A DNA stretch of 64,000 nt, taken from the NCBI GenBank assembly GCA_044869815.1, contig JBIOXS010000097.1, positions 9,969 to 73,968 of the forward strand, read 5' to 3'. A model generated the notes under the pieces. The model did no database searches, was not told where the DNA came from, and saw only the letters and a list, made by a program, of their open reading frames with translations. Positions 6,276 through 30,934 of this stretch are shown here, piece by piece. A program made the position numbers and the translations under genes. Each line of letters starts with the position of its first letter. The stretch's first letter is position 1. This DNA comes from Candidatus Rokuibacteriota bacterium (GTDB lineage Bacteria; Methylomirabilota; Methylomirabilia; Rokubacteriales; CSP1-6).

Positions 6276-7826
6276 ATGTGGGAAGACGACGTCGAAGAGC
6301 TGAAGCGTCGGGTGGAGCTGGCGCGCGCGATGGGCGGCGCGGACAACGTCGAGCGCCAGCACAAGGCCGGCCGCCTCACCGTGCGCGAGCGCATCGACCG
6401 ACTGCTCGACAACGGGTCGTTCCACGAGACCGGTGCGCTCGCGGGCTCGGCGCAGTACGAGGGCGAGCGCCTCGTCGCCATACGCCCGGCGAACTTCGTC
6501 ATGGGCACCGGCCGGATCGACGGGCGCCGCGTGGTCGTCGGCGGCGACGACTTCACGGTACGCGGCGGCGCCAACGATGCCTCGATCGGCGGCAAGCAGG
6601 GCTACAGCGAGCGCATGGCGCGCGAGCTGCGTCTGCCGGTCGTCCGGCTCGTCGACGGTACCGGAGGCGGCGGCAGCGTGAAGACCTACGAAATCACGGG
6701 TCGCACGTACGTGCCGGGGAACCCGGCCTGGGACATCGTGGCGGCGGCGATGTCGGAGATTCCGGTGGTGGCGGCGGCGCTGGGCCCGGTGGCCGGCCTG
6801 GGCGCGGCGCGCGTGGCGTGCTCGCACTTCTCGGTGATGGTGCGCGGCCTGTCGCAGGTCTTCGTGGCCGGCCCACCGGTGGTGGAGCGCGCGTTCGGCA
6901 CGCCGGTCGACAAGGAGTCCCTCGGCGGCTCCGAAATCCAGGCCAAGGCGGGCGGCGTCGACAACGTGGTGGACTCCGAGGACGAGGCGTTCGAGCAGAT
7001 CCGCCGTTTCCTGTCCTACCTCCCGCGCAACGTGTGGGAAGCGCCGCCGCGCGCCACGGCGGAGGACGATCCGCGCCGGCGCGACGAGGCCCTCCTGTCG
7101 CTCATCCCGCGGAACCGGCGGCGCGGCTATGACGTTCGCAAGCTGGTGGGGCACGTCGTCGACCGCGCCTCGTTCTTCGAGATGGGCCCGCAGTACGGCC
7201 CGTCGCTGATCGTCGGGCTCGCGCGCCTCGATGGCTATCCGATCGGCGTGGTCGCCAACGACCCCGCGCACGCGGGCGGCGCGCTGACGGCGGCCGGGTC
7301 CGAGAAGCTGACGCGGTTCGTCGACCTGTGCGATACCTTCCATCTGCCCGTCGTCAACTTCGTCGACAATCCGGGCTTCCTCATCGGGACGCAGGCGGAG
7401 CGGGACGGCACCATTCGCAAGGGCGTGCGCGCGCTGCAGGCGATCTACCAGGCCACCGTGCCGTGGATCACCGTCATCGTGCGGCGGGTGTTCGGCGTGG
7501 CCGGCGCCGGCCACGCCAACGTGCAGGCGCTGAATCTGCGGTACGCGTGGCCGTCGGCCGACTGGGGCTCGTTGCCGCTCGAGGGTGGCATCGAGGCGGC
7601 CTACAAGCGCGAGCTCCAGGCGTCCGCCGATCCGGCCACGCTGAAGAAGGAGATCGAGGCTCGGCTCAACGTCTTCCGCAGCCCCTTCCGCACGGCGGAG
7701 GCCTTCAGCATCGAGGAGATCATCGACCCGCGCGACACGCGGCCGCTGCTGACCGATTGGATCTCGCTCGCCTACGACAACGAAGCCACCCGCCTCGGTC
7801 CGAAAACCCGCGGCATGCGTCCATGA
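6276..7826 (+). CDS. Acyl-CoA carboxylase carboxyltransferase (beta) subunit, propionyl-/methylmalonyl-CoA type
   Basis: Residues 105-620 of ORF 5964..7826, from MWEDDVEELKRR. Motifs: KAGRLTVRERIDRLLD, GGDDFTVRGGA, VANDPAHAGGALT, FVDNPGF. Confidence 0.9.
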   Translation: MWEDDVEELKRRVELARAMGGADNVERQHKAGRLTVRERIDRLLDNGSFHETGALAGSAQYEGERLVAIRPANFVMGTGRIDGRRVVVGGDDFTVRGGANDASIGGKQGYSERMARELRLPVVRLVDGTGGGGSVKTYEITGRTYVPGNPAWDIVAAAMSEIPVVAAALGPVAGLGAARVACSHFSVMVRGLSQVFVAGPPVVERAFGTPVDKESLGGSEIQAKAGGVDNVVDSEDEAFEQIRRFLSYLPRNVWEAPPRATAEDDPRRRDEALLSLIPRNRRRGYDVRKLVGHVVDRASFFEMGPQYGPSLIVGLARLDGYPIGVVANDPAHAGGALTAAGSEKLTRFVDLCDTFHLPVVNFVDNPGFLIGTQAERDGTIRKGVRALQAIYQATVPWITVIVRRVFGVAGAGHANVQALNLRYAWPSADWGSLPLEGGIEAAYKRELQASADPATLKKEIEARLNVFRSPFRTAEAFSIEEIIDPRDTRPLLTDWISLAYDNEATRLGPKTRGMRP

Positions 7827-8503
7827 GAAGTGTCATGCGTCATCGCGTCGTGCGCGTCGCCGCGGCCCTCTTCGTCGCCACCGCCGCCTGGGCCGCCGAC
7901 GACTTTCTGGTCGAGGACTGGAAGCAAAAGCTCGGCGCCACCGGCATCCCGCCGGGATGGCAGGGGCAGAACTGGGGGAGCCCGAGGTACGACTTCAAGG
8001 TGGAGGAGAGCGACGGCCACGCGGCCGTGCACATGAAGAGCGCCAACGACGGCTCCACGATCAGTCGCGAGATCAAGGGCAAGGTCGATCTGAAACAAAC
8101 ACCCATCCTCGAGTGGACGTGGAAGGTCGTGGCGCTCCCGAAGAACGGCAACTCGTGCAGGAAGGCGACGGACGACCAGGCGGCGCAGCTGTTCGTCGTC
8201 TGGCCCCGGTTTCCGGAGCCCGTCCGCTCGCGCATCATCGGCTACGTCTGGGACACCACGCAGCCCGTCGGCACCGTCTGCAAGAGCGAAAAGACGGGCA
8301 CCGTGACCTATATCGTCGTCCGGTCGGGCAGCGGCGACCTGAGCAAGTGGCTGACCGAGCGCCGGAACGTCGTCGAGGACTTCACCAAGGTCTACGGCGA
8401 GGCGCCGGACAATCCGGCCGGCGTCTCGATCTCCATCGATTCGAACGACACGGACTCCACCTCCGAATCGCTCATGGCCACGATCACCTTCACACGGAAA
8501 TAA
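7823..8503 (+). CDS. Secreted DUF3047-family protein
   Basis: Residues 166-391 of ORF 7328..8503. Signal peptide MRSVMRHRVVRVAAALFVATAAWAADD. The body (..ILEWTWKV..DDQAAQLFVVW..IGYVWDT..) matches my memory of DUF3047. ATGA overlap with the carboxyltransferase stop. Confidence 0.7.
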   Translation: MRSVMRHRVVRVAAALFVATAAWAADDFLVEDWKQKLGATGIPPGWQGQNWGSPRYDFKVEESDGHAAVHMKSANDGSTISREIKGKVDLKQTPILEWTWKVVALPKNGNSCRKATDDQAAQLFVVWPRFPEPVRSRIIGYVWDTTQPVGTVCKSEKTGTVTYIVVRSGSGDLSKWLTERRNVVEDFTKVYGEAPDNPAGVSISIDSNDTDSTSESLMATITFTRK

Positions 8504-8643
8504 CGGCCACGAACCCTCTCGGTCAGGCCACCCACGCCTCGAACCGTACGAACACCCGTCGCTACAAATGACAGCCACCAACCATCTTGGTCAGGCCACC
8601 CACGCCTCGAACCGCACGCACAGCCGTCGCTACAAATGACAGC
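8498..8643 (+). repeat. 68-bp tandem direct repeat (2 full units plus 10 nt of a third)
   Basis: Unit 1 is 8498-8565, unit 2 is 8566-8633, and a partial unit covers 8634-8643. Units 1 and 2 differ at 8 of 68 positions by manual alignment. Each unit starts AAAT(A/G)AC, supplying in turn the TAA stop of the DUF3047 gene, ATG 8568 and ATG 8636. Confidence 0.9.
8568..8639 (+). CDS. Candidate 23-codon upstream ORF encoded by repeat unit 2 (MTATNHLGQATHASNRTHSRRYK)
   Basis: ATG 8568 to TGA 8637-8639. The stop overlaps ATG 8636 of the next gene (ATGA). No obvious Shine-Dalgarno. Coding status unproven. Confidence 0.3.
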   Translation: MTATNHLGQATHASNRTHSRRYK

Positions 8644-9289
8644 GACGCGGGACTTCGTGCACACGCTCGCGGCCGACAACGCGGCCTTCTGGACCGGACG
8701 CGACGTGCGGCTGGACCCGGCCGCCGCGCCCGCCGCGCGGCTCGAGCAGATCCGCTATCGGATGCGGCAGGGCGTGTACAACGAGCTGCGCTCGGTCGAG
8801 CTGATCGCGGCGTGGATCCCCTGGGTCCCCGAACGGGAAATCCGCGAGCTGTTGCCCGGACAGCTCGACGACGAGCATTGCCACTATCAGCTCCTGCGCG
8901 GCCGGCTGCGCGAGCTCGGCGAAGACCCCGACGGCTACCGGCCGCTTCCCGAGTGGGTGGCGCTGTTCGACTGGCTCGTGGAATGCCGCACCCGTCCCAC
9001 GCTCGAGAAGCTCGCCATGTTTCAGTTCGCGGGCGAGACGCAGTCGTGCGAGGGCTTCGAGACGCTGATTGCGCTGGCCAGTGACGTGGACCCGGCCACC
9101 GCGGCGCTGTACCGGGGCCAGATCCTCCCCGACGAGCGGCGCCACGCCGCGATCGGTCGGCGTGCCCTGATGTTGCTCTGCGACACGCCGGCCGCCCAGG
9201 CCCGGGCACGTGCCGCGTGCCGCGAGATGAACGAGCGTATCTCCGCGGCGTACCAGGCGCACCGCGCCCGGGTCGAGATCCGCGGCTGA
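8636..9289 (+). CDS. Ferritin-like diiron-carboxylate protein, function unknown
   Basis: ORF 8636..9289 with high GC3 throughout. Ligand pattern E...EXXH...E...EXXH: YNELRSVE, DDEHCHY, AGETQSCEGFE, DERRHAAIG. Confidence 0.7.
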   Translation: MTATRDFVHTLAADNAAFWTGRDVRLDPAAAPAARLEQIRYRMRQGVYNELRSVELIAAWIPWVPEREIRELLPGQLDDEHCHYQLLRGRLRELGEDPDGYRPLPEWVALFDWLVECRTRPTLEKLAMFQFAGETQSCEGFETLIALASDVDPATAALYRGQILPDERRHAAIGRRALMLLCDTPAAQARARAACREMNERISAAYQAHRARVEIRG

Positions 9290-9349: not shown

Positions 9350-10345
9350 ATGATCCACAACGCGCTGATCCGGAGCGTGCCCATCTTCTTCCTCGCGATG
9401 ATCCTGGCCCCTCTTTGTCGGAGCGCCGCCGCGCAGACGTACAAGACGACAGCCGCCGACGGCACGGTGATCTACAGCGACAGGCCGCTGCCCGTCGTTC
9501 CGGAGACGCCGGCGTCGACCGGCACGCCGGTGCCGAGCGTTCGACAGCCGGCGCCGGCGACCAGCGGGACGACCGCGGACGACGTGCTCGAGCTGTCCGG
9601 GGTGCGACCGCAGCTCGCGGCGGCGCCGGCGAAGATGGTCGGCGAGTTCAAGCCGCGTAACGCTCGGCTCAACGCCGAGGACACGGCCGCCCTCGCGCAC
9701 ATTCTCGCGCGGCACTTCGACGCCGATCGCCTGTACGGCCAGGTGCGGGGCGAGTTCAAACGTCGCGCAGATGCCCGCAAGCTCGTCGAAGTCGGCGAGT
9801 GGCTGCGCTCGCCACTCGGACAGAAGATCACGGCGCTCGAGGTCGCGGCGGGGCTGGAGCCCGACGCCGCCCAGCGCATGCTCGCCTTCGCGCCGGGCGG
9901 TCGCGGCGGACCGCCGGCGGCCCGCATCGCCCTCGTCGAGCGGATCGACTGGACGGCGGGCATCACCGACGGCTCGCTCGAATCGTCGCTCGCCGTCGCG
10001 CGCGCCATGGCGATGGCGATCAACCGGGCGCTGCCGCCGGACGAGCGGCAGACCTCGGCGCACATCGAGCGGCAGATCCAGCAGCTGCGCGGCCAGAGCC
10101 GCGCGAAGCTGGCGCAGACGACCGTCGCCTTCATGCTCTATCAATACCGCTCGCTCGAGGACGATGAGCTTCAGCAGTACGCGGACTTCCTCGCCGGCGA
10201 CGCCGGGCGCTGGTACACGGCGACGATATCCAAGGCGATGAACCGGACGGTCGCCGCCGCCGCCCAGCGTGCAGCGAGCGAGGTCATCCGCGCGATCCCG
10301 CCCCCGCGGTGGTCGGGTGGCGCCGCCGCCTCACCCCGTCACTGA
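9350..10345 (+). CDS. Secreted protein with N-terminal DUF4124-like domain
   Basis: ORF 9350..10345. Signal peptide ...FFLAMILAPLCRSAAA. YKTTAADGTVIYSDRP resembles the DUF4124 signature. The rest is a helical domain of unknown function. Confidence 0.6.
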   Translation: MIHNALIRSVPIFFLAMILAPLCRSAAAQTYKTTAADGTVIYSDRPLPVVPETPASTGTPVPSVRQPAPATSGTTADDVLELSGVRPQLAAAPAKMVGEFKPRNARLNAEDTAALAHILARHFDADRLYGQVRGEFKRRADARKLVEVGEWLRSPLGQKITALEVAAGLEPDAAQRMLAFAPGGRGGPPAARIALVERIDWTAGITDGSLESSLAVARAMAMAINRALPPDERQTSAHIERQIQQLRGQSRAKLAQTTVAFMLYQYRSLEDDELQQYADFLAGDAGRWYTATISKAMNRTVAAAAQRAASEVIRAIPPPRWSGGAAASPRH

Positions 10346-29361: not shown

Positions 29362-29972
29362 GGCGCTCGCGCGGCTTCACGCTGCTCGAGGTCCTGATCG
29401 CCATCTCGATCGTCGGCGCCCTGCTCGTCATCGCCTTCGGTGGCCTGCGGGTGGCCATCGCCGCGTGGCGCCAGGGAGAGACGCGGGTGGAGGCGCACCA
29501 GCACATCCGCGCGGTGGCCTACACGCTCTCGCGCGCGCTCGGCGCGGCCTATCCGTACCGCGCCACCAAGGGCACGTCGCCGGAGGTGGTCGTGCTGTTC
29601 GACGGCACCGAGAAGCGGTTGGAGTTCGTCACGCACTCCCCGCCGCTGCCGCTGCAGGCGCCGATCGCCTTCACCGCCGTCGGCATCGCCCTCGAGGAGG
29701 GCGACGAGCCCGGACTCGTCGTCCGCGAGCGAGCGCTCCCCAACCGCGATCCGTTCACGGAAGGCACCGTCGTGATGCGCGACCCGAGCGTCACCTCCCT
29801 GGCCTTGAGCTTTCTCAGCGAGGACGGCAACTGGGTGGACACCTGGAACGGGCAGGACACCAAGACCATCCCGCGGTCGATCCAGCTGAAGCTCGGGGTG
29901 ACCCTCAACGGTCGTACTCAGGCCATGCCGCCGATCACCGTCACCCTGCGCGCCGCCCCGGTGCCGAGATGA
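29358..29972 (+). CDS. gspJ: Minor pseudopilin (GspJ-like)
   Basis: ORF 29358..29972. MRRSRG|FTLLEVLIAISIV. 204 aa. Confidence 0.65.
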   Translation: MRRSRGFTLLEVLIAISIVGALLVIAFGGLRVAIAAWRQGETRVEAHQHIRAVAYTLSRALGAAYPYRATKGTSPEVVVLFDGTEKRLEFVTHSPPLPLQAPIAFTAVGIALEEGDEPGLVVRERALPNRDPFTEGTVVMRDPSVTSLALSFLSEDGNWVDTWNGQDTKTIPRSIQLKLGVTLNGRTQAMPPITVTLRAAPVPR

Positions 29973-30934
29973 GCGCCACCAACCGTCCCCGCACGACCAG
30001 CCGTCGGTACAGATGCGACCGCCGCGGGTTCGCGCTCATCGCGGTGCTGCTCGTACTGGCCATGGTGGGCGTCATCGGCGCGGAGTTCGCGTATTCGATG
30101 CGGCTCGAGGCCACGTCGGTGCGATCGTTCAAGGACAACCTCATCGCCGGTCACCTCGCCGAGGCCGCCGTCGAGCAGGCCATACGCGAGATCGCCGGCG
30201 ACGTGGCCTTCGTCGCCACCGACGACGACGGCGCCCTCACGTTCTACACGCGCGATCGGGTCGCGCTGCCGCGCCTGGCCCGCTCGAACGTGCCCCTCGG
30301 CGGCGGGCACTTCACCTACCGGGTCACCGACGAGGAGTCGCGGCTGAACCTCAACGCAGCGACACCGGACCGCGTGGAGCGTCTGCTGCAAGCGCTCGGC
30401 GTCGACAAGATCGAGCGCGACGCGATCAACGACAGCCTTCAGGACTGGCGCGACGCCAACGAGGAGCACCGGATCAACGGCGCCGAGAGCGACGACACGT
30501 ATCTGAAGCTGCCGCTGCCGTACCGGTCCAAGAACGCGGCTCTCGACTCGATCACCGAGTTGCTCCAGATCAAGGGCGTGACCTCGGCGATCTTTCACGG
30601 CACCGCCGGCAAGCCGGGCCTCGCCGCCTACGTCACGGTGAAGAGTCCGGGGCAGGTCAATCTGAACACCGCCCCCTGCCTCGTGCTGAAGGCGCTCGGC
30701 TTCGGCGATGCCGAATGCACCGCCATCGACCAGGCCCGACGTGGCGCTCCCTACACCACCGTGCCCGGACAGTTCGGCGGACGCGGCCTTGGCACGACGA
30801 CGCGCACGTTCCGCGTCGAGGCGGAGGGAATCATCGGCGGCGAGGTGCGCGCGCGACTCACCGCGATCCTGCAGCGACGCGCCGACGCGGCCAACGACAG
30901 CCTCGACGTGCTCGAATGGTCGGGCGTGCGATGA
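29969..30934 (+). CDS. gspK: Minor pseudopilin GspK-like (no Glu+5)
   Basis: Residues 229-549 of ORF 29285..30934, from ATG 29969 (ATGA overlap). ...DRRG|FALIAVLLVL lacks the E5 residue, as expected for GspK. Motifs: ESRLNLN, DWRDANEE, GQVNLNTAP. Confidence 0.8.
   Translation: MSATNRPRTTSRRYRCDRRGFALIAVLLVLAMVGVIGAEFAYSMRLEATSVRSFKDNLIAGHLAEAAVEQAIREIAGDVAFVATDDDGALTFYTRDRVALPRLARSNVPLGGGHFTYRVTDEESRLNLNAATPDRVERLLQALGVDKIERDAINDSLQDWRDANEEHRINGAESDDTYLKLPLPYRSKNAALDSITELLQIKGVTSAIFHGTAGKPGLAAYVTVKSPGQVNLNTAPCLVLKALGFGDAECTAIDQARRGAPYTTVPGQFGGRGLGTTTRTFRVEAEGIIGGEVRARLTAILQRRADAANDSLDVLEWSGVR

What the first reader, a model, noticed from the sequence alone, without database searches (positions are those of the whole stretch)
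8498..8643. 68-bp tandem repeat that chains stop/start overlaps and creates a uORF in front of a ferritin-like diiron gene
- **Repeat structure.** The 68-bp unit occurs head to tail at 8498-8565 and 8566-8633, and its first 10 nt recur at 8634-8643. The two full units differ at 8 of 68 positions.
- **What each unit supplies.** Every unit begins AAAT(A/G)AC. In unit 1 this gives the TAA stop of the DUF3047 gene. In unit 2 it gives ATG 8568. In unit 3 it gives ATG 8636 of the diiron gene.
- **Resulting uORF.** Because 68 = 3n+2, ATG 8568 opens a 23-codon ORF (MTATNHLGQATHASNRTHSRRYK). That ORF ends exactly on the TGA overlapping the next ATG (ATGA). This is a classic translational-coupling/uORF geometry.
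- **Unit 1 peptide.** Unit 1 encodes the near-identical ITATNPLGQATHASNRTNTRRYK but has ATA where unit 2 has ATG.
- **Substitution pattern.** Five of the 8 substitutions fall on third codon positions of this frame, and 4 are synonymous. This is a weak hint, on a small sample, that the peptide frame is constrained.
- **No known explanation.** I know of no described regulatory element with this layout.
Basis: seen in the sequence. Interest (0 to 1): 0.6.

Follow-up and report, generated by a model that had tools for sequence, protein, structure and literature searches.

The report
MIRU-like intergenic repeat pair, Rokubacteria
The 68-base tandem repeat is real, but it is two copies of a short repeat found about 40 times in this soil bacterium's genome. 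That repeat usually sits right on gene start codons, much like the MIRU repeats of mycobacteria, so the small upstream reading frame is a by-product of the repeat, not a dedicated switch for the downstream gene.

Summary
**Observation.** It is confirmed to the base: two 68-bp units (8498-8565 and 8566-8633, 8 differences) plus a 10-nt third start. TAA 8501 ends the DUF3047 gene. ATG 8568 opens a 23-codon ORF that ends on the ATGA of the downstream gene's start, ATG 8636.

**What the unit is.** It is not unique. It belongs to a 62-68-nt dispersed repeat family:
- about 42 copies lie in this 3.7-Mb MAG;
- all 11 congeneric genomes carry it, and so do many Rokubacteria/Methylomirabilota MAGs;
- arrays reach four units.

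**Family traits.**
- At 84 of 132 loci a co-oriented gene starts at the element's 3' end; 44 of these are flush (ACAATG or ACAAATG).
- Most units have no stop codon in any sense frame.
- No conserved hairpin, terminal inverted repeat, Rfam match or RAYT gene was found.

**This locus.** Copy number varies:
- 0 in two congeners, which have a plain GTGA stop/start overlap;
- 1 in a third congener;
- 2 here;
- 1 in three soil metagenomes with near-identical flanks. That allele has no uORF.

**Peptide.** Different copies are read in different frames, and conservation shows no 3-nt periodicity, so the peptide is not constrained.

**Verdict.** This layout is the published layout of mycobacterial MIRUs. 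I read it as a new member of a known kind, apparently undescribed for this phylum. Ribosome relay through the mini-ORF is inferred, not shown.

The parts
7820..8503 (+). Upstream gene, DUF3047 family. Its TAA stop (8501-8503) lies inside the first bases of repeat unit 1. The exact start codon was not verified.
   Evidence: Pfam PF11249, E=9.4e-35. The ORF ends at 8503.
8498..8565 (+). Repeat unit 1 (68 nt) of the dispersed family. It has ATA at the position where other copies have ATG, so it has no mini-ORF start.
   Evidence: nhmmer family hit at C97:18474-18535, E=8e-13.
8566..8633 (+). Repeat unit 2 (68 nt). It is 88% identical to unit 1, which is its nearest relative among all copies, so the pair arose by local duplication.
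8634..8643 (+). Partial third copy (AAATGACAGC). It contains ATG 8636 of the downstream gene.
8568..8639 (+). 23-codon mini-ORF (MTATNHLGQATHASNRTHSRRYK) whose TGA overlaps ATG 8636. It is the frame-1 'relay' ORF typical of one subfamily of the repeat.
   Evidence: Four other loci in the same genome carry the same RTGACRGCC left end and a homologous ORF.
8556..8575 (+). First copy of a 20-nt identical direct repeat (CCGTCGCTACAAATGACAGC). It is the left end-point of the 68-bp deletion allele.
   Evidence: Joint 8555->8624, 'skips 68, both=20', in contigs of runs X1, X2 and X3.
8624..8643 (+). Second copy of the same 20-nt direct repeat. It is the right end-point of the deletion allele.
8636..9289 (+). 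Downstream gene, 217 aa, ferritin-like/DUF455-like (weak match only). Start ATG 8636 is supported by orthologues that begin V/MTA(P/T)RDFV at a GTGA overlap.
   Evidence: Pfam PF04305, E=1.7e-4, below the curated cut-off. Orthologue alignment A1 and translations.

Best explanation
**What it is.** The array is a local tandem duplication of one copy of a dispersed 62-68-nt repeat family of Rokubacteria (Methylomirabilota). The consensus is (AACGGA)GCCACGAACCATCTCGAACAGGCCACCCACGGCTCGAGCCG-(about 14 variable nt)-CGCTACAA(T/ATG). The family is built and distributed like the mycobacterial MIRUs.

**How the element behaves.**
- It shows insertion/deletion polymorphism and lands on start codons and RTGA stop/start overlaps of co-oriented genes.
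- It carries no stop codon in the sense frames and no stable secondary structure.
- It re-creates a start codon at its 3' end (ACAATG or ACAAATGA).

**Inferred consequence.** Because of those properties it can sit between two translationally coupled genes without separating them. A ribosome that ends the upstream gene can restart on the element's mini-ORF. It then restarts again at the ATGA on the downstream gene.

**At this locus.**
- The ancestral state was a direct GTGA overlap between the DUF3047 gene and the ferritin-like gene.
- One unit was inserted, then duplicated in place.
- In near-identical strains the second unit is absent; I infer loss by recombination between 20-nt direct repeats.
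- The 23-codon uORF is a structural by-product of the repeat, not a regulatory leader peptide.

**Shown:** family membership, distribution, orientation bias, copy-number variation, filled and empty sites, and the lack of peptide constraint.
**Inferred:** mobility as such, the mobilising mechanism (unknown), and ribosome relay or re-initiation.
For: **Dispersed family.**
- BLAST and iterated nhmmer find 41-42 copies on about 30 contigs of the window's own genome, on both strands.
- All 11 same-genus genomes carry it (3 to 36 or more scored hits each). Two of 7 other genera of the family give weak hits. None of 12 genomes in the other families of the order has it.
About 70 of the 80 loci listed are Rokubacteria, Rokuibacteriota or Methylomirabilota MAGs.

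**Tandem arrays recur.** Of 173 loci, 20 have 2 units, 4 have 3 and 2 have 4, with periods of 63-71 nt.

**Start-codon association and orientation.**
- At 84 of 132 evaluable loci a co-oriented gene starts within -8 to +25 nt of the 3' end. In 44 of them the start is at -1 or 0. The mirror-image control gives 9.
- Pfam domains begin at residues 1-12 of ten such proteins, so these are real starts, and the genes are functionally unrelated.
- Only 2 of 56 flush starts have a Shine-Dalgarno-like motif, against 16 of 27 spaced starts.

**Translation-transparent design.**
- 51 of 84 full units have no stop in any sense frame, against 6 of 84 on the antisense strand.
- RNAalifold finds no consensus structure on either strand.
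- Fold z-scores are -0.3 and -0.24 for the two strands, and -0.76 for the array itself.

**Filled and empty sites.**
- This junction has 0 copies in G008 and G004 (plain GTGA overlap).
- G010 has 1 copy, with a complete relay ORF, MTTTDRLDQATHAPSRMKRRRYQ*, and ATGA at both ends.
- This genome has 2 copies.
- At least three other sites are filled in relatives and cleanly empty in this genome; two more comparisons are less clear.

**Population polymorphism.** Contigs of three soil metagenomes with 0-3 mismatches in the flanks join 8555 to 8624. They skip exactly 68 nt between two identical 20-nt repeats.

**Local duplication.** Units 1 and 2 are each other's nearest relatives (88%, against 83% or less to any other copy).

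**No peptide constraint.**

**Literature.**
- MIRUs are 40-100 bp, with 40-50 copies, lying in the intergenic regions of polycistrons. They contain ORFs that overlap the adjacent genes and are flanked by short direct repeats at filled sites (PMC3184786).
[quoted passage not shown] 1997).
Against: - No transcription or translation data exist. No RNA run holds the locus, so relay or re-initiation is untested.
- In this window the first link is broken. Unit 1 has ATA, so the DUF3047 stop is 65 nt from ATG 8568 and neither ATG has a Shine-Dalgarno motif. How the ferritin-like gene is initiated here is not explained by coupling alone.
- At 54 loci the element abuts a start codon with no upstream co-oriented gene. 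Relay cannot be the whole story there.
- The phase of relay ORFs at two-gene junctions (13 relay, 6 in-frame, 8 none) does not differ significantly from chance. Selection for coupling is therefore not demonstrated.
- No mobilising enzyme was identified. The very high conservation of the core CAGGCCACCCACG (90-99% in 77 copies) could equally mean a host function.
- Ten units lie antisense, flush against tRNA 3' ends. The start-codon model does not predict this.
- Sequence relatedness to true MIRUs was not tested.
Confidence: 0.75

Rival explanations
1. **Dedicated uORF or leader-peptide control.** The 23-codon ORF is a regulatory upstream ORF. Its translation, or its peptide, sets expression of the ferritin-like diiron gene.
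For: - The ATGA overlap of the mini-ORF stop with ATG 8636, and the absence of a Shine-Dalgarno motif before 8636, are real.
- Five of the 8 unit differences fall at codon position 3.
Against: - The uORF is absent from the one-copy allele of near-identical strains.
- It is absent from the empty-site orthologues.
- The same element and ORF precede unrelated genes.
- Copies are read in different frames.
- There is no 3-nt periodicity of conservation.
- P=0.088 for the codon-position count.
Confidence: 0.04
2. **Host cis-element kept by selection.** Under this reading the family is not a selfish repeat. It would be a portable Shine-Dalgarno-independent translation leader, an internal promoter, or the binding site of an RNA- or DNA-binding protein. 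That element would serve dozens of genes.
For: - A near-invariant, asymmetric 13-30-nt core lies beside a freely varying 3' segment.
- 56 genes start flush with the element, and only 2 of them have a Shine-Dalgarno-like motif, although the organism otherwise uses AGGAG.
- The sense strand is C/A-rich and unstructured.
- 54 loci have no upstream gene to couple to.
- MIRU-containing spacers in M. tuberculosis have reported promoter activity (PMC4213456).
Against: - There is no sigma-70-like promoter in or near the array, and TACAAT sits too close to the ATG to serve it.
- The downstream genes are functionally unrelated.
- Presence or absence differs at orthologous sites between congeners.
- Copies occur in frame inside coding regions and antisense next to tRNAs.
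- Copy number differs between near-identical strains.
Confidence: 0.15
3. **Assembly artefact.** The two-copy state would be a chimeric join of two strain alleles, each with one unit.
For: - No indexed run contains unit-2 words.
- All contigs that span the locus in X1-X3 have one copy.
- This is a metagenome-assembled genome.
Against: - The unit1-to-unit2 junction (…CGCTACAAATGACAGCCACC…) exists in neither one-copy form, so it needs real reads at any k above 20 (inference).
- Tandem arrays of 2-4 units are common in other assemblies of the phylum, including long contigs of 1-3 Mb.
Confidence: 0.05

Closest known systems
MIRUs (mycobacterial interspersed repetitive units; Supply et al. 1997, as summarised in PMC12548453 and PMC3184786)
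   Same: - Size in the 40-100 bp range, with tens of dispersed copies.
- Located between co-oriented genes, in the same orientation as the genes.
- Contain small ORFs whose ends overlap the neighbouring stop and start codons (ATGA, -4 spacing).
- Inserted at start codons.
- Short direct repeats flank filled sites, and empty sites exist in relatives.
- Tandem arrays whose copy number varies between strains (VNTR behaviour).
- The mobilising mechanism is unknown.
   Different: - The phylum is unrelated (uncultured Rokubacteria/Methylomirabilota).
- Sequence relatedness was not tested and is not expected.
- There are no terminal or internal inverted repeats here, whereas PMC3184786 describes imperfect TIRs and GC-rich internal inverted repeats in MIRUs.
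- Some copies lie in frame inside coding regions.
- Some copies lie antisense, flush against tRNA 3' ends.
REP/BIME elements with RAYT transposases
   Same: Short, abundant and extragenic, often between co-oriented genes.
   Different: - There is no palindrome or hairpin.
- No Y1 transposase/RAYT gene is present in any of the 12 genomes of the genus.
- The element is strictly oriented and tied to start codons.
RPEs (Rickettsia palindromic elements) and MITEs
   Same: - They are non-autonomous short repeats.
- RPE-like in-frame insertion into a coding region is seen: 60 nt inside an FAD-oxidase-like gene of G006, at a site that is empty in this genome.
   Different: - There are no terminal inverted repeats and no palindrome.
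- The main habitat is the start codon, not the ORF interior.
Translational coupling through a short leader cistron (natural uORF delivery; engineered 'bicistronic design', PMC12548453)
   Same: A short ORF that ends in ATGA on the start of the main gene, with no Shine-Dalgarno motif of its own for the main gene.
   Different: - Here the leader cistron is carried on a dispersed repeat and varies in copy number.
- At this locus the first unit has lost its start codon.

Membership tests
MIRU-like intercistronic repeats | Unit of 40-100 bp, with tens of dispersed copies per genome | tested here: met
   The model is 62 nt and the tandem period is 63-71 nt. There are 42 nhmmer hits in a MAG that is 80% complete.
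MIRU-like intercistronic repeats | Lies between or ahead of genes, in the same orientation as the flanking genes | tested here: met
   84 of 132 loci have a co-oriented gene start at the 3' end, against 9 in the mirror control. 28 have a co-oriented stop at the 5' end, against 12 in the mirror control. Exceptions are 10 tRNA-adjacent antisense units.
MIRU-like intercistronic repeats | An internal small ORF whose start and stop overlap the stop and start of the neighbouring genes (-4 spacing) | tested here: met
   13 of 27 two-gene junction loci have it, and G010 has it at this very locus. In the window it is met only at the downstream end, because unit 1 has ATA.
MIRU-like intercistronic repeats | Filled versus empty orthologous sites, with short direct repeats at filled sites | tested here: met
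   Copy number at this junction is 0, 1 or 2 (alignment A1). At least three further sites are filled in relatives and cleanly empty here. RTGAC or ATGA(+2-6 nt) is repeated on both flanks.
MIRU-like intercistronic repeats | Tandem copy number varies between strains (VNTR) | tested here: met
   A one-copy allele is present in three metagenomes with near-identical flanks. Arrays of 2-4 units occur elsewhere.
MIRU-like intercistronic repeats | Co-transcribed with the flanking genes as one polycistronic mRNA | not testable with these tools
   No RNA run holds the locus. No promoter-like or terminator-like site lies in the array, which is compatible but is not a test.
MIRU sensu stricto (Mycobacterium) | Sequence homology to the mycobacterial MIRU consensus, with a mycobacterial host | not tested
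The host is Rokubacteria/Methylomirabilota. It is therefore filed as 'works like', not as a member.
REP/BIME | GC-rich palindrome that forms a stem-loop | tested here: not met
   RNAalifold gives an empty consensus structure on both strands. Fold z-scores are about -0.3. No inverted repeat lies in the units.
REP/BIME | An associated RAYT (Y1 transposase) gene in the genome | tested here: not met
   PF01797 is absent from all 12 genomes of the genus, although it is detected in the control genomes and in other families of the order.
MITE | Terminal inverted repeats | tested here: not met
   The consensus ends (AACGGAGCC... and ...CGCTACAA) are not complementary, and the repeat finder finds no inverted pair in the units.
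Regulatory uORF / leader peptide | ORF or peptide conserved with, and specific to, the regulated gene | tested here: not met
   It is absent from the orthologues and from the one-copy allele. The frame differs among copies, and there is no codon periodicity.
Known structured RNA families (Rfam 15) | A match to a covariance model | tested here: not met
   There are no hits at E<=1 in 8300-8900 on either strand.

The most novel reading that the evidence does not exclude
Rokubacteria may carry an active, non-autonomous element of a mechanistically unknown class. On this reading it has three properties:
- It specifically targets start codons and RTGA stop/start overlaps (and tRNA 3' ends).
- It evolved independently of the mycobacterial MIRUs.
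- It doubles as a portable, Shine-Dalgarno-independent translation-initiation leader.

Two observations fit. 56 fetched genes start flush with the element and only 2 of them have a Shine-Dalgarno-like motif. The near-invariant core CAGGCCACCCACG could be the recognition site of the still unidentified mobilising or binding factor.
Probability: 0.2. Interest if true: 0.7.

Novelty: new member of a known kind. Interest (0 to 1): 0.4.

Why it matters
- **For annotating this genome.** The spacer needs no special regulatory story. The uORF, the 'peptide' and the odd missing Shine-Dalgarno motif are all explained by a repeat family. Gene callers should expect its mini-ORFs and its start codons.
- **More broadly.** A second, phylogenetically distant lineage with start-codon-seeking, stop-free, tandemly expanding repeats suggests that 'translation-transparent' interspersed repeats are a convergent solution. 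They would not be a mycobacterial curiosity.
- **As a data set.** The hundreds of copies and the filled and empty sites in Rokubacteria MAGs could be used to look for the insertion mechanism, which is still unknown even for MIRUs. They could also be used to ask how genes that start flush with the element, without a Shine-Dalgarno motif, are translated.
- **As markers.** The arrays are potential strain-typing (VNTR) markers for an abundant uncultured soil phylum.

Tried and rejected
- **Structured RNA, riboswitch or ribozyme.**
  - Rfam finds nothing.
  - There is no consensus structure on either strand.
  - Folding is no better than for shuffled sequences.
- **Sigma-70 promoter or intrinsic terminator in the array.** None was found. 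The conserved TACAAT looked like a -10 box, but it sits 0-1 nt from the ATG, so it cannot serve that start.
- **REP/RAYT or IS200-type mobilisation.** There is no palindrome and no Y1 transposase in the genus.
- **MITE.** There are no terminal inverted repeats.
- **Conserved micropeptide.** The 23-aa ORF does recur, at 5 loci in the genome including this one. But the same DNA is read in another frame elsewhere, or not at all, and conservation has no codon periodicity.
- **Selection for relay phase.** The split of 13 relay, 6 in-frame and 8 none is not distinguishable from chance.
- **RNA evidence.** No RNA run could be listed.
- **Independent confirmation of the two-copy allele.** No run holds unit-2 words. 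Contigs of X5, X21, X22 and X7 gave only fragments of this copy or of other family copies.
- **Published description of the family.** A search for 'Rokubacteria' + 'repeats' + 'intergenic' returned no papers in the held library.
- **tRNA-like T-arm resemblance of GGTTCGAGCC.** I considered this by eye and dropped it, because the stems do not pair.
Full report
**1.
- Tandem Repeats Finder reports a single strong array at 8498-8643: period 68, 2.1 copies, 89% matches, score 236. The repeat finder returns the same two units.
- The units differ at 8 of 68 positions.
  - TAA 8501-8503 ends the DUF3047 gene (Pfam PF11249, E=9e-35).
  - ATG 8568 opens a 23-codon ORF.
  - The TGA of that ORF overlaps ATG 8636 of a 217-aa ORF. 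That ORF has only a weak DUF455/ferritin-like Pfam match, below the curated cut-off.
- Unit 1 has ATA where unit 2 has ATG.

**2. The unit is not unique: it is a dispersed repeat.**
- A search of the window's own assembly (3.69 Mb, 190 contigs, 70% G+C, about 80% complete) finds 41 matches on many contigs and both strands.
- Iterated nhmmer converges on 42 copies of a 62-nt core.
- The aligned consensus from 77 near-full copies is (GCGGAGCGGA)GCCACCAACCATCTCGAACAGGCCACCCACGGCTCGAGCCG-variable-CGCTACAA(T).
- Conservation is block-wise. CAGGCCACCCACG is 90-99% conserved, and about 14 nt before CGCTACAA vary freely.

**3. Distribution.**
- All 11 other genomes of the same genus carry the family, with 3 to 36 or more scored hits each.
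- Two of seven other genera of the same family give a few weak hits. None of the 12 genomes from the other families of the order has any.
About 70 of the 80 loci listed are Candidatus Rokubacteria, Rokuibacteriota or Methylomirabilota MAGs from soil and groundwater.
- Most of the few other hits are what chance would give for 19 specified bases.
- One contig labelled Actinomycetota is an exception: it carries four tandem units.

**4. Family anatomy.** I analysed 207 units at 173 loci, taken from the own genome plus the fetched loci.
- *Arrays.* 147 loci are single units, 20 are pairs, 4 are triplets and 2 are quadruplets, with periods of 63-71 nt.
- *Start-codon association.*
  - At 84 of 132 evaluable loci a co-oriented gene starts within -8 to +25 nt of the element's 3' end.
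  - In 44 of them the start codon is flush (ACAATG or ACAAATG).
  - The mirror-image control gives 9.
- *These starts are real, and the genes are unrelated.* For ten such genes in this genome the Pfam domains begin at residues 1-12. The genes are an Era-type GTPase, a PHP-domain polymerase, MatE, an amidohydrolase, an alpha-amylase-family enzyme, PNPOx, a sigma-54 activator, an ABC permease and an AIRC-family protein; one has no Pfam match.
- *Shine-Dalgarno use.*
  - Flush starts almost never have a Shine-Dalgarno-like motif (2 of 56). Starts 7-24 nt away often do (16 of 27).
  - That motif is frequently supplied by a partial next unit, ACAACGGAG.
- *Open frames.* 61% of full units have no stop codon in any of the three sense frames, against 7% on the antisense strand.
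- *No structure.*
  - RNAalifold gives an empty consensus structure on both strands.
  - Single-sequence folds are no better than shuffles.
  - There are no inverted repeats and no Rfam match.
- *No RAYT.* No Y1 transposase/RAYT gene occurs in any of the 12 genomes of the genus.

**5. This locus in relatives.** Orthologues of the downstream protein exist in five congeners.
- In G008 and G004 the DUF3047 gene and the ferritin-like gene overlap directly: ...AAGCCGTGACCGCGCCGCGCGACTTC, with GTG start and TGA stop sharing GTGA.
- G010 has one unit between AAATGACG and CCAATGACGGC. It carries a complete 23-codon relay ORF with ATGA at both ends.
- This genome has two units (alignment A1; translations).
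- In G007 and G003 the upstream gene is different.
- Units 1 and 2 are each other's closest relatives (88%, against 83% or less to any other copy). The pair therefore arose by local duplication, not by a second insertion.

**6. Variation within populations.**
- Five soil metagenomes hold this stretch.
- In three of them (X1-X3) contigs match the flanks with 0-3 mismatches but join 8555 directly to 8624, skipping exactly 68 nt.
- The two break-points lie in an identical 20-nt direct repeat, CCGTCGCTACAAATGACAGC.
- This one-copy allele keeps unit 1, which has ATA and no start codon. It therefore has no uORF in front of the ferritin-like gene.
- No public run indexed here contains unit-2 words, so the two-copy state rests on the assembly alone. 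A chimeric origin is unlikely, because the unit1-to-unit2 junction exists in neither one-copy form.

**7. Other filled and empty sites.**
- Sites occupied in G010 (two units), G006 and G002 are cleanly empty in this genome. Two further comparisons, with G011 and G008, are less clear.
- In G006 the element is a 60-nt in-frame, stop-free insertion inside an FAD-oxidase-like coding region.
- Two copies in this genome also lie inside long ORFs.
- Ten units lie antisense with their 3' end flush against the 3' end of a tRNA gene: tRNA-Met six times, Gly twice, Tyr once and Thr once.

**8. The peptide is not constrained.**
But P=0.088.
- Mean information content by phase across 77 copies is 1.06, 1.00 and 0.98 bits, so there is no periodicity.
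- Relay ORFs use different frames in different copies: MTATNxLDQATHGSSR... in five loci of this genome, including this array, and M.PRASRTGHPRLEP...SLQ in others. In six junctions the element is simply an in-frame N-terminal extension.
- Among 27 loci with a gene on both sides, 13 have a relay ORF, 6 an in-frame extension and 8 neither. This is not clearly different from chance phase.

**9. What it is like.**
- The published description of mycobacterial interspersed repetitive units matches point by point. MIRUs are 40-100 bp, with 40-50 copies, in the intergenic regions of polycistrons. They hold ORFs whose ends overlap the adjacent genes, with empty sites in relatives and short direct repeats at filled sites (PMC3184786).
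[quoted passage not shown] 1997).
- MIRU-containing spacers have also been reported to have promoter activity (PMC4213456). That keeps a functional reading alive.
- The differences here are the unrelated phylum, the absence of inverted repeats, the intragenic in-frame copies and the tRNA-flush antisense copies.
- I found no paper on such repeats in Rokubacteria in the held library.
- Earlier notes of this scan describe the same kind of family in other Rokubacteria genomes. I reached the MIRU reading before seeing them (note), and I treat them as agreement, not as evidence.

**10. Mechanism, with its status.**
- *Shown.* The array belongs to a dispersed, oriented, start-codon-associated, stop-free and unstructured repeat family. 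Its copies come and go at orthologous sites and expand or contract in tandem.
- *Inferred.* The family persists because it is 'translation-transparent'. Ribosomes ending the upstream gene re-initiate on the mini-ORF and again at the ATGA of the downstream gene, or they simply read through in-frame copies.
- *Unknown.*
  - What mobilises the element.
  - Why the core is so conserved.
  - How flush starts without an upstream gene or a Shine-Dalgarno motif are initiated.
  - At this locus, how the ferritin-like gene is initiated now that unit 1 has lost its ATG.

**11. Verdict.** This is not a bespoke uORF switch and not an unknown layout. It is a tandem pair from a MIRU-like repeat family, a new member of a known kind in an uncultured phylum. 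Interest is moderate (0.4).

Noticed in passing
window 29969-30015: An internally deleted relative of the repeat lies at the 5' end of the putative gspK gene. It reads ATGAGCGCCACCAACCGTC|CCCGCACGACCAGCCGTCGGTACAGATG: the left and right parts are present and the conserved core is missing. nhmmer with the family model does not detect it.
   Followed up: partly
own genome outside the window: C117:10420-10480, C117:10699-10752, C10:3194-3251; also loci L060, L080, L110, L117, L126, L132: Ten units lie antisense with their 3' end (…TACAA) flush against the 3' end of a tRNA gene: Met(cat) six times, Gly(tcc) twice, Tyr and Thr once each. The exact abutment suggests a shared target (T-R-R after ACAA) or a role as tRNA spacer or trailer. 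It is not explained.
   Followed up: partly
L016:1494-1554 (G006), compared with own genome C64:19841-19851: The element is a 60-nt in-frame, stop-free insertion inside an FAD-oxidase-like coding region, at a site that is empty in this genome. This is behaviour like that of Rickettsia palindromic elements.
   Followed up: partly
fetched loci, e.g. L055:4753-4938, L017:1501-1561; own genome C156:57249, C5:4223, C148:45321: When the gene start lies 9-15 nt beyond the element, the spacer is often ACAA(A/C)GGAG…. This is the first bases of a further partial unit, and it supplies the Shine-Dalgarno motif.
   Followed up: partly
L091:7353-7603 (contig JBKOWS010000011.1, labelled Actinomycetota MAG): Four tandem units of the Rokubacteria family sit on a contig binned as Actinomycetota. 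This is either a binning error or a transfer.
   Followed up: no
window 9350-10345: The gene after the ferritin-like ORF encodes a protein with DUF4124 and DUF2059 matches. It follows after a 60-nt gap.
   Followed up: no
window 8505-8512: A related strain in run X5 (about 96% identical) has 6 nt deleted within unit 1 (2+3+1 nt). So the unit also varies by small indels between strains.
   Followed up: no
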